Of a stretch of DNA of 64,000 nucleotides, positions 20,751-21,879 are shown in pieces; the first letter of the stretch is position 1; each line of letters starts with the position of its first letter. The stretch lies in NCBI RefSeq assembly GCF_009914755.1, contig NC_060930.1. One strand, 5' to 3'. The stretch comes from the human T2T-CHM13v2.0 reference genome, Homo sapiens. Below the pieces are notes generated by a model that saw only the letters and a program-made list of their open reading frames with translations, was not told the DNA's origin and did not search any database. Position numbers and translations under genes: made by a program.

Positions 20751-21027
20751 GGCCGGGCGTGGTGACTCACACCTGTAATCCCAGCACTTTGGGAAGCCGA
20801 GGTGGGAGGATTGCTTGAGCCTAAGAGCCTGAGACCAGCCCGGGCAACATAGTGAGACCCCATCTTTACAAACAAAAAATTTAGCCAGTCTTGGTGGTGT
20901 GCTCCTGTAGCCCAAGTTACTTGGGGGGCTGAAGCGGGAGGATCACTTTAGCTTAGGAGGTCTAGGCTGCAGTGAGCCATGATCAGGCTGCTGCACTCCA
21001 GTTGGGCAACAGAATGAGACCCTGTCA
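20751..21027 (+). mobile_element. AluJ SINE lacking a poly-A tail, fused directly to TTC22-derived sequence
   Basis: AluJ diagnostics (gggaggattgcttgagcc; gggcaacatagtgagacc). Ends ...gagaccctgtca and is followed immediately by TTC22 antisense sequence. Confidence 0.93.
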
Positions 21028-21879
21028 CGGCCCTTGTGCAGTATGTCTGCCAGTTGAGCTCTGGATCTTGTAGGACATTCAGGGCCATGTTGCAGGTTCC
21101 AGTGGCCATATCCTGCTTTCCTAAGTGGAATATTTTGGCCGGGTGATACAGGATGGGAGGTTGGTTCTTGGCGATCTCGAAGGCCTTGCCAAAGCAGTCC
21201 AGAGGGTCGGTCTCCGAGTACTCACAGTATGGATGCCCATGGTGGTGATGGATAAGGGGTCCTTCCTCTCCAGCAGCATTCTGTTGCAACACCAGGCCAG
21301 GGCTCGGTAGTGGGGGAGGTCCTCAGACTTGAGCACTTGCTGGAGCAGGGCCAGCATGCAGTTGAAGGTGGGCAGCCTTTTCTGCTTCTCTCTGCCCAGC
21401 TCCAGGAAGATACCATCTAGCCTGATGAAGAGCATTGCCATAGTGAAGTACCAGCCCCTTTTCTCTTCCATTTGGATCTGCTTCCCCCTTTGGCACCATC
21501 CTTCCACCTTCCTGAGAAAGCCCCTTTGGGCATATTGAGCCCAGCTCAGCTGAAGCTCAAGACCCCCGTGAACTGTTCTGCCATTATTATTCTTGCCAAC
21601 CTTGCTGTGCATTCAGAACGACTTGGGCTTCAATTAATATTTATTATTAAACACGTTACAAATAGTTTTTTTCCAATTTTTACATTACATTTTAACATTG
21701 TTAATTGGTACGTACTGAATTTATAGAAATTGTAAGTCAATGTGTTCTTTACACTTTTTAGTAAATATCTGTTTCTGAAAAACAGAAAAATCTCATTTCT
21801 GTTCTTAAGATTATTTGAGATTTTTACAATTTCAGTAGCATAACTAATGCTTCAGAGCCCTGGCTGGTGGAGGAGGGGT

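What the first reader, a model, noticed from the sequence alone, without database searches (positions are those of the whole stretch)
20751..21040. Fossilised Alu exonisation: TTC22 coding sequence joined to a tailless antisense AluJ
Seen: the minus strand reads ...TGC ACA AGG GCC G|TGACAGGGTCTCATTCTG.... The AluJ is complete except for its poly-A tail, which is replaced exactly by TTC22 sequence. Known: antisense Alu exons use the poly-T tract as the polypyrimidine tract and an AG just after it, so the tail is removed by splicing. From recall (unverified), TTC22 has an exon boundary after CTRAK. Inference: this is a splice junction. If the parental GCC AAG is restored (2-nt loss in the copy), the Alu supplies an immediate in-frame TGA, giving a C-terminally truncated TTC22.
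Basis: partly seen in the sequence, partly recalled or inferred. Interest (0 to 1): 0.72.

Follow-up and report, generated by a model that had tools for sequence, protein, structure and literature searches.

The report
TTC22 retrocopy preserving an Alu-started last exon
This is an old, dead retrocopy of an unusual TTC22 messenger RNA whose last exon began inside a backwards Alu repeat, so the Alu lost its tail by splicing; it is a tidy example of a known kind of genomic fossil, not a new mechanism.

Summary
On the minus strand, TTC22 exon-5 sequence abuts a full-length, tailless Alu at 21026|21025.

The core inference, a fossil splice junction, is strongly supported. The annotated 534-bp pseudogene is part of a roughly 2.15-kb L1-type processed pseudogene (21628 to about 19476, minus). 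It is flanked by a 17-nt target-site duplication with 1 mismatch.

It is colinear with TTC22 on chr1. All 5 discontinuities fall at canonical GT..AG sites in the parent. The last one joins the exon-5 donor (..GCC AAG|gtgggt) to ttttgag|ACAG, the AG after the poly-T of an antisense Alu 174 nt into intron 5. The copy then continues through the Alu and another 953 nt of intron 5 (83% identity, the only full-length match in the genome) to an AATAAA.

- There is no 2-nt loss. The copy has GTG where AAG is expected, at the same length.
- There is no immediate in-frame TGA. In today's gene the frame runs 94 codons through the Alu.

A gibbon TTC22 protein model uses the same Alu through an internal acceptor. 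This is a new example of a known kind, of modest interest.

The parts
21629..21645 (-). 5' target-site duplication of the retrocopy (AATAAATATTAATTGAA)
   Evidence: 17 nt, 1 mismatch to 19475-19459. This 17-mer (1 mismatch or fewer) occurs only at these two places on the minus strand of the window and nowhere on the plus strand.
21478..21628 (-). Copy of a non-canonical TTC22 exon ('exon A') that lies in intron 1 of the parent (C1:54668807-54668655), 335 nt upstream of exon 2
   Evidence: 92% identity over 138 aligned bases. The parent segment ends at the donor GGCCG|gtgggc; 2 of 2 genome matches are the parent and this copy, so it is not a repeat.
21422..21477 (-). Copy of TTC22 coding exon 2 ([19 protein letters not shown])
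   Evidence: parent C1:54668320-54668265, with acceptor ccctag| and donor |gtcagg.
21303..21421 (-). Copy of TTC22 coding exon 3
   Evidence: parent C1:54668049-54667934, canonical AG and GT.
21185..21302 (-). Copy of TTC22 coding exon 4
   Evidence: parent C1:54667298-54667180, canonical AG and GT.
21026..21184 (-). Copy of TTC22 coding exon 5, ending ..TGC ACA AGG GCC GTG (parent ..GCC AAG, i.e. CTRAK)
   Evidence: parent C1:54666367-54666206, donor AAG|gtgggt, 90.5% identity. CTRAK ends at residue 340 of the 569-aa protein.
20751..21025 (-). First 275 nt of the terminal exon: an old Alu read antisense (the Alu itself is on the + strand), without its A-tail
   Evidence: aligns to the parent Alu C1:54666031-54665753 (81.5% identity). 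In the parent the poly-T and GAG lie on the intron side of the acceptor.
19798..20750 (-). Non-Alu remainder of the terminal exon (parent intron 5 sequence; includes old dispersed-repeat pieces that look MIR-like)
   Evidence: full-length match, query 1-953, only to C1:54664811-54665752 (83%, E 5.4e-292). The other 14 of 16 matches are pieces of 171 nt or less, all within query 324-511.
19498..19794 (+). Younger Alu inserted later into the 3' end of the retrocopy, flanked by the direct repeat AAATAAT (19803-19797 and 19497-19491)
   Evidence: It is absent from the parent, where the sequence is uninterrupted.
19476..19497 (-). Last bases of the terminal exon, with AATAAA (19493-19488) and a residual short A-run (19478-19476)
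   Evidence: the copy reads AAATAATAAAATATTTCTAAAA, the parent AAATAATAAAATATCTCTATAAAA. Homology stops here.
19459..19475 (-). 3' target-site duplication (AATAAGTATTAATTGAA)

Best explanation
Window 21628 to about 19476 (minus strand) is an L1-made processed pseudogene of an alternative TTC22 mRNA. That mRNA consisted of a non-canonical exon from intron 1, coding exons 2-5, and a terminal exon of about 1.25 kb lying inside intron 5. The terminal exon begins at the first AG after the poly-T of an antisense Alu (ttttgag|ACAG) and ends at a downstream AATAAA. Splicing exon 5 to that AG removed 174 nt of intron, including the Alu's tail, which served as the polypyrimidine tract. That is why the Alu in the copy is complete but tailless and abuts coding sequence. 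The mRNA was reverse-transcribed and inserted on chromosome 6, roughly 30-60 million years ago on assumed neutral rates. The copy then decayed: it gained frameshifts, a stop, AAG>GTG at the junction, and a later Alu insertion. Shown here: colinearity, intron loss at GT..AG sites, the target-site duplication, and the 3' end at a poly(A) signal. Inferred: L1 as the agent, the date, and that GTG arose from AAG by two substitutions.
For:: apart from Alu hits, the query matches only C1 54.66 Mb, exon by exon; there are six colinear blocks; 5 of 5 discontinuities sit at canonical acceptor AG and donor GT in the parent, including GGGCCAAG|gtgggtca and tttgtttgttttgag|ACAGTGTC. The intron removed at the Alu is 174 nt. 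Copy and spliced parent have the same length across that junction; the 953 nt beyond the Alu match TTC22 intron 5 over their full length (83%), and nothing else in the genome matches beyond 171-nt pieces; 17-nt target-site duplication with 1 mismatch, exactly at the two ends of homology; homology ends 14 nt or so after AATAAA; canonical exons 6 and 7 lie further downstream (C1:54662703 onward), so the Alu exon is inside intron 5; gibbon protein model P0001 (named in the search output as UniProt A0A2I3GB11) ends CTRAK plus 32 residues. Those residues map best to the same Alu (84% identity at C1:54665885-54665772, against 69% or less for other Alus in the 40 kb searched). So this Alu is also modelled as a terminal coding exon in a living ape, through the internal acceptor ttttgtag|AGACGAGG. 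K2P distance is 0.151 overall and 0.148 in the non-Alu part of the terminal exon.
Against: The three bases at the junction are GTG, not the expected AAG. That needs two substitutions, or one tandem change. At 13.5% overall divergence my rough estimate is about a 5% chance for any given triplet. GTG is also one change from the Alu's intronic GAG and identical to the first three intron bases, so a non-splice junction within 3 nt or less cannot be excluded from this genome alone. The poly(A) tail is almost absent (3-6 A). Within the Alu alone the parent is not distinctive. One search gives 83% against 82% for the next Alu. In one search only 4 of 257 informative columns are shared-derived, against 21 copy-only and 20 parent-only. 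Under the stricter control the parent shares 2, while the 8 other Alus share 0-4. No transcript data could be consulted, and no human protein with this Alu tail was seen. One search was swamped by Alu-rich predicted proteins and is uninformative.
Confidence: 0.92

Rival explanations
1. The source RNA read straight through from exon 5 into intron 5 (intron retention with intronic polyadenylation). The 174 nt were lost later, by a deletion in the chr6 copy or by a jump of the reverse transcriptase along the template.
For:: two unnamed non-primate TTC22 protein models (P0046, P0209) read from CTRAK straight into intron 5. P0209 continues across the site where the primate Alu sits. The junction triplet GTG equals the first three intron bases in the parent.
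Against: The missing stretch runs, to within 3 nt, from the exon-5 donor to the AG after a 17-nt pyrimidine run. The total length equals the spliced product exactly. The four other introns of the same copy were removed by splicing. A random deletion hitting both sites is very unlikely. P0046 and P0209 may be predictions from genomic DNA rather than transcripts.
Confidence: 0.04
2. One reading: the acceptor was tttag|TGACAGGGTC, the copy lost 2 nt of GCC AAG, and the isoform stopped at once at an Alu-supplied in-frame TGA.
For:: the letters TGACAGGG do follow GGGCCG in the copy.
Against:: the parent has ttttgag|ACAG, with no AG before a TGAC. Copy and spliced parent have equal length, so no 2-nt loss is needed; in the parent the frame is open for 94 codons through the Alu. 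In the copy the frame also passes the junction (..[15 protein letters not shown]..) and stops only 29 codons later, at a substitution (TCA>TAA).
Confidence: 0.02
3. An Alu inserted independently into, or next to, a truncated TTC22 pseudogene on chr6 and lost its tail by deletion. Alternatively, an L1 template switch fused Alu RNA to TTC22 mRNA (a chimeric retrogene).
For: Alu insertions into pseudogenes are common; one did occur here, at 19498-19794. The Alu sequence alone does not single out the parental Alu.
Against:: the 953 nt on the far side of the Alu are TTC22 intron 5, in the same order and orientation as in the parent. So the Alu came with its parental flanks. There are no target-site duplications around this Alu. 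In my recollection, template-switch chimeras join the two RNAs in the same orientation and not at splice sites; here the Alu is antisense.
Confidence: 0.01

Closest known systems
Processed pseudogenes as fossils of splice variants (Shemesh, Novik, Edelheit, Sorek 2006, PNAS 103:1364; seen here only as a reference entry in PMC5470649; content recalled; paper not held)
   Same: A retrocopy records an alternative transcript of its parent gene, including exons absent from the main isoform.
   Different: This instance records two non-canonical exons at once: an intron-1 exon and an Alu-started terminal exon. I found no mention of it in print.
Antisense Alu exonisation through the poly-T/AG acceptor (Sorek 2002; Lev-Maor 2003; recalled, not read here. 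Lin et al. 2008 seen only as a reference entry in PMC4056463)
   Same: The Alu is antisense in an intron, its poly-T acts as the polypyrimidine tract, and the AG of the GAG just after it acts as the 3' splice site.
   Different: Classical Alu exons are internal cassettes that also need a 5' splice site inside the Alu. Here no Alu donor is used. The exon runs through the whole Alu and about 970 nt beyond, to a poly(A) signal, so it is an Alu-initiated terminal exon.
RefSeq pseudogene LOC100420742 (hub annotation, window 20998-21531)
   Same: Same locus, same parent gene.
   Different: The annotated span is 534 bp. The retrocopy defined by colinearity and target-site duplication spans 21628 to about 19476 (about 2.15 kb including a 0.3-kb later Alu).
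Gibbon TTC22 short isoform model (P0001, named as UniProt A0A2I3GB11, 332 aa)
   Same: Exon 5 (CTRAK) joined to the same intron-5 Alu as the last coding exon.
   Different: It uses the internal acceptor after the Alu's middle T-rich linker and another reading frame (32-residue tail). It also skips exon 3.

Membership tests
L1-mediated processed pseudogene (retrocopy) | Introns of the parent gene precisely absent | tested here: met
   5 of 5 discontinuities lie at GT..AG sites of the parent.
L1-mediated processed pseudogene (retrocopy) | Target-site duplication flanking the insert | tested here: met
   17 nt, 1 mismatch, at 21645-21629 and 19475-19459; the only two occurrences in the window.
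L1-mediated processed pseudogene (retrocopy) | 3' end at a polyadenylation site, followed by a poly(A) tail | tested here: inconclusive
   homology ends about 14 nt after AATAAA, but only 3-6 A remain before the duplication.
L1-mediated processed pseudogene (retrocopy) | Located away from the parent gene | tested here: met
   copy on contig C6, parent on C1.
Antisense Alu exonisation | Alu in antisense orientation inside an intron of the host gene | tested here: met
   the Alu is at C1:54666034-54665753, between exon 5 (ends 54666206) and exon 6 (starts about 54662703).
Antisense Alu exonisation | 3' splice site is an AG just after the poly-T | tested here: met
   tttgtttgttttgag|ACAGTGTC. The copy starts its Alu part at ACAG.
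Antisense Alu exonisation | 5' splice site within the Alu (internal cassette exon) | tested here: not met
   the copy runs uninterrupted through the Alu into 953 nt of downstream intron and ends at a poly(A) signal. It is a terminal exon.
Antisense Alu exonisation | Direct transcript evidence (cDNA or RNA-seq junction) | not testable with these tools
   No transcript data are at hand. The indirect evidence is the retrocopy itself and the gibbon protein model.
AluJ subfamily | Subfamily-diagnostic positions against a curated consensus | not tested
   No repeat library is available. Identity of about 80-82% to other Alus shows only that it is old. The J assignment rests on recall.
Chimeric retrogene by L1 template switching | Two RNAs joined in the same orientation at a non-splice point, the second part unrelated to the first gene's locus | tested here: not met
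   the Alu and its far flank are contiguous TTC22 intron 5. The junction is at GT..AG and the Alu is antisense.

The most novel reading that the evidence does not exclude
The chr6 copy may be a near full-length snapshot of a 30-60-million-year-old short TTC22 mRNA. That mRNA would have started in intron 1 (exon A carries an in-frame ATG just before exon 2) and ended in intron 5. The Alu may have been recruited as a 3' splice site almost as soon as it inserted. Only 4 of 257 informative Alu columns changed before the retrocopy was made, against about 20 per lineage since. The Alu landed in a stretch that may already have served as an intronic polyadenylation unit, so it needed no donor site of its own. 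The continued modelling of this Alu as a terminal coding exon in gibbon would then mean a long-lived primate isoform encoding TPR 3-4 with an Alu-coded tail.
Probability: 0.25. Interest if true: 0.4.

Novelty: new member of a known kind. Interest (0 to 1): 0.3.

Why it matters
The find dates an Alu exonisation event without any RNA. The Alu in TTC22 intron 5 was already serving as a 3' splice site when the retrocopy was made, tens of millions of years ago. It also shows a route to Alu exonisation that needs only an acceptor, by capturing an existing downstream poly(A) site. Practically, the RefSeq pseudogene span (534 bp) understates the retrocopy by about 1.6 kb. TTC22 may have a short isoform (intron-1 start, Alu-coded C-terminus) worth looking for in primate transcriptomes. 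None of this changes how Alu exons or retrocopies are understood to work.

Tried and rejected
- I searched proteins longer than the 94-residue Alu-coded tail of the parent, to find an annotated human isoform. 1534 hits came back, and all of the best 120 were Alu-rich predicted proteins of one monkey assembly. Uninformative.
- I searched with the last 72 residues of the gibbon short isoform. Of 127 hits (120 listed), only the gibbon protein itself covered the tail. No human Alu-tailed TTC22 was found among proteins of 182-581 aa. This is weak evidence of absence, because the database is clustered at 90% identity.
- I tried to identify the parental Alu from shared derived states within the Alu alone. 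It was not discriminating (4 shared of 257 columns; control 0-4). Also, the 8 comparison Alus were chosen as the copy's best hits, which biases the count.
- literature searches for TTC22 with Alu or 'exoniz', for TTC22V1, and for LOC100420742. The Alu mentions in PMC6365692 are a qPCR reference. PMC4056463 uses TTC22 only as a simulation example. Nothing addresses this exon or this pseudogene.
- Shemesh et al. 2006 is not held.
- A TATA-like word upstream of exon A was considered as a promoter. It sits at about -18 to -12 of the copy's first base, too close for a typical TATA box by recall. Not pursued.

Full report
**The observation.** The Alu lies on the + strand from 20751 (ggccgggcgtgg...) to 21025. 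One search finds its two monomers as SRP-related matches on the + strand (20752-20868, E 8.6e-13; 20884-21028, E 2.7e-08). No A-run follows it; TTC22-like coding sequence abuts it directly.

**Finding the parent.** searched the window's own genome with 20700-21560 (minus). There were 10871 first-look candidates, 40 scored and 56 matches listed. Apart from the many Alu hits, only contig C1 near 54.66 Mb matches, and it does so piecewise. Query 375-532 maps to C1:54666209-54666369 (89%). Further pieces map upstream. The best Alu hit of all (query 535-861, 83%, 338 bits) lies at C1:54665702-54666032 and runs past the Alu to the end of my query. The next Alu scores 82% and 273 bits, so the Alu alone hardly discriminates.

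**Colinearity.** I fetched 40 kb of C1 and aligned it to window 24000-18000. The alignment gives six colinear blocks. The last is a single 1254-column alignment, from window 21026-19797 to C1:54666032-54664810.

**Splice sites.** A gapped alignment that allows long parent-only gaps, followed by adjustment to splice sites, gives these parent segments:

| Segment | Parent coordinates (C1) |
|---|---|
| A | 54668807-54668655 |
| exon 2 | 54668320-54668265 |
| exon 3 | 54668049-54667934 |
| exon 4 | 54667298-54667180 |
| exon 5 | 54666367-54666206 |
| terminal segment | 54666031-54664810 |

All 5 discontinuities have AG before the downstream segment and GT after the upstream one. The fifth joins GGGCCAAG|gtgggtca to tttgtttgttttgag|ACAGTGTC and removes 174 nt.

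**Mapping the canonical gene.** tblastn of TTC22 proteins against the parent places canonical exon 1 at 54681384-54680815. Exons 2-5 are as above, with CTRAK ending at residue 340. Exon 6 is at 54662703-54662527 and exon 7 at 54662005-54661469. So segment A lies in intron 1 and the Alu segment lies in intron 5.

**CTRAK is an exon end.** This is shown independently by protein isoforms that diverge exactly there:
- canonical ...CTRAK IHIRAY;
- human isoform X1 ...CTRAK VYYYMG;
- gibbon short model ...CTRAK RRGLTI.

**The junction itself.**
- Copy: GGGCC GTG ACAGGGTCTC.
- Parent, spliced: GGGCC AAG ACAGTGTCTC.

The lengths are equal and there is no indel. The three bases where the last codon of exon 5 should be differ at two positions.

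In the copy the reading frame passes the junction (..[15 protein letters not shown]..), so the TGA is out of frame. In the parent the frame after K reads TVSRSVTQLE... and stays open for 94 codons, to a TAA three bases past the Alu. The predicted product is therefore an Alu-tailed protein, not an immediately truncated one.

The GTG is the one blemish. It is two changes from AAG, one from the intronic GAG of the Alu, and identical to the first three intron bases. At 13.5% overall divergence my rough estimate is that two changes in a given triplet have about a 5% chance. Against that, a non-splice event would have to hit the donor and the acceptor both within 3 nt and reproduce the spliced length. 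I give the non-splice rivals about 5% together.

**Beyond the Alu.** searched the genome with the 953 nt downstream of the Alu (19798-20750, minus). It returned 16 matches: the query itself, one full-length match to C1:54664811-54665752 (83%, E 5.4e-292), and 14 pieces of 171 nt or less, all within query 324-511. That stretch looks like an old dispersed repeat (MIR-like, by recall). So the Alu arrived on chr6 together with its parental far flank. This excludes an independent Alu insertion or an Alu/mRNA template-switch chimera.

**The ends of the retrocopy.**
- 3' end: homology stops after AAATAATAAAATATTTCTAAAA (copy) against AAATAATAAAATATCTCTATAAAA (parent), about 14 nt after an AATAAA.
- A younger Alu (19498-19794), with its own AAATAAT duplication, interrupts the copy just before that point. 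It is absent from the parent.
- 5' end: homology begins at GCCCAAGTC (21628).
- Immediately outside both ends lies AATAA[A/G]TATTAATTGAA: 17 nt with 1 mismatch, at 21645-21629 and 19475-19459. These are the only two occurrences in the window.
- The A-tail is nearly gone (3-6 A).

Intron loss, a target-site duplication, a 3' end at a poly(A) signal and a location on another chromosome make this an L1-type processed pseudogene of about 2.15 kb. The RefSeq span (20998-21531) covers a quarter of it.

**Segment A.** This segment is unique in the genome apart from this copy (2 of 2 matches). It ends at a GT donor and has stops in the frame of exon 2, followed by an in-frame ATG 7 codons before exon 2. 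No AG sits at the copy's 5' end. So the copy is either 5'-truncated within a longer exon or starts near an intron-1 transcription start. I cannot tell which.

**Age.** Identity between copy and parent is 86.5% over 1790 aligned bases. K2P distance is 0.151 overall, 0.148 in the 928 non-Alu bases of the terminal exon, and 0.221 in the CpG-rich Alu. With neutral rates of about 1-2.2e-9 per site per year per lineage (recalled, assumed), that gives roughly 30-60 million years.

Within the Alu, one search used 257 columns where at least 6 of 8 other Alus agree. Copy and parent share a deviant state at 4 columns. The copy alone deviates at 21 and the parent alone at 20. This suggests the Alu was still close to its source sequence when the mRNA was copied. 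The caveats are that the 8 comparators were picked as the copy's best hits, and that under a stricter control the parent (2) is no more similar to the copy than other Alus are (0-4).

**Living evidence for the exon.** The gibbon model P0001 (332 aa; named as UniProt A0A2I3GB11) ends CTRAK plus 32 residues. These equal another frame of the same human Alu (frame 2). They map best to C1:54665885-54665772 (84%), against 69% or less for the other Alus in the 40 kb searched. The acceptor there is the AG after the Alu's middle T-rich linker.

Two unnamed non-primate models (P0046, P0209) read from CTRAK straight into intron 5. P0209 aligns to the human intron up to the Alu insertion point and resumes just after it. 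These may be genomic predictions, so I use them only as a hint that the stretch after exon 5 could have been a read-through terminal unit before the Alu arrived.

**What is known.** The idea that processed pseudogenes archive splice variants is established (Shemesh et al. 2006; seen only as a reference entry in PMC5470649; the paper is not held; its content is recalled). So is the poly-T/AG acceptor of antisense Alus (Sorek 2002 and Lev-Maor 2003, recalled).

This case differs from the classical Alu cassette exon. No Alu donor is used, and the exon is terminal, ending at a pre-existing downstream poly(A) signal.

Full-text searches found nothing on a TTC22 Alu exon or on the structure of this pseudogene:
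- TTC22 with Alu (9 papers);
- TTC22V1 (6 papers);
- TTC22 with 'exoniz' (1 paper);
- LOC100420742 (2 papers).

I checked passages of PMC6365692, PMC13693868 and PMC4056463. Supplementary tables of Alu-exon catalogues were not searched and may list it.

**Verdict.** The core interpretation, a fossil splice junction from Alu exonisation, is supported at about 0.92. This is a clean new example of a known kind, of modest interest.

Noticed in passing
window 21478-21628 (minus); parent L012:8655-8807 (minus): The retrocopy starts with a 153-nt exon that lies in TTC22 intron 1, 335 nt upstream of exon 2. It is unique in the genome, ends at a GT donor, and carries an in-frame ATG 7 codons before exon 2. 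It could be an alternative first exon or a cassette exon of an old TTC22 transcript.
   Followed up: partly
window 21652-21629 versus L012:8808-8830 (minus): The 5' flank of the copy (part of the target-site duplication) and the parental sequence just upstream of exon A share the 9-mer ATAAATATT at nearly the same distance from the junction. This happens in 63 of 5000 shuffles at offset 3 or less, and 226 of 5000 at any offset. It may be chance in AT-rich DNA or a trace of homology-assisted 5' joining; unexplained.
   Followed up: partly
window 19498-19794 (+), repeats at 19797-19803 and 19491-19497: A younger Alu inserted into the retrocopy just upstream of its poly(A) signal, with a 7-nt AAATAAT target duplication (9 nt with one mismatch).
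   Followed up: partly
window about 20240-20430 and about 20560-20650 (minus): The non-Alu part of the terminal exon contains stretches that give many short weak hits genome-wide (query 324-511). By recall they look like MIR elements, so the TTC22 alternative last exon is largely built from repeats.
   Followed up: no
window 20998-21531 (hub annotation): The RefSeq pseudogene span ends 28 nt inside the Alu part (20998 versus the junction at 21025/21026) and starts 97 nt short of the copy's 5' end. The annotation covers about a quarter of the retrocopy.
   Followed up: yes
L012 (C1:54666205-54666032) and proteins P0046, P0209: Unnamed non-primate TTC22 protein models read through from exon 5 into intron 5. 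P0209 aligns to the human sequence on both sides of the Alu insertion point, which marks the empty site in that species.
   Followed up: partly
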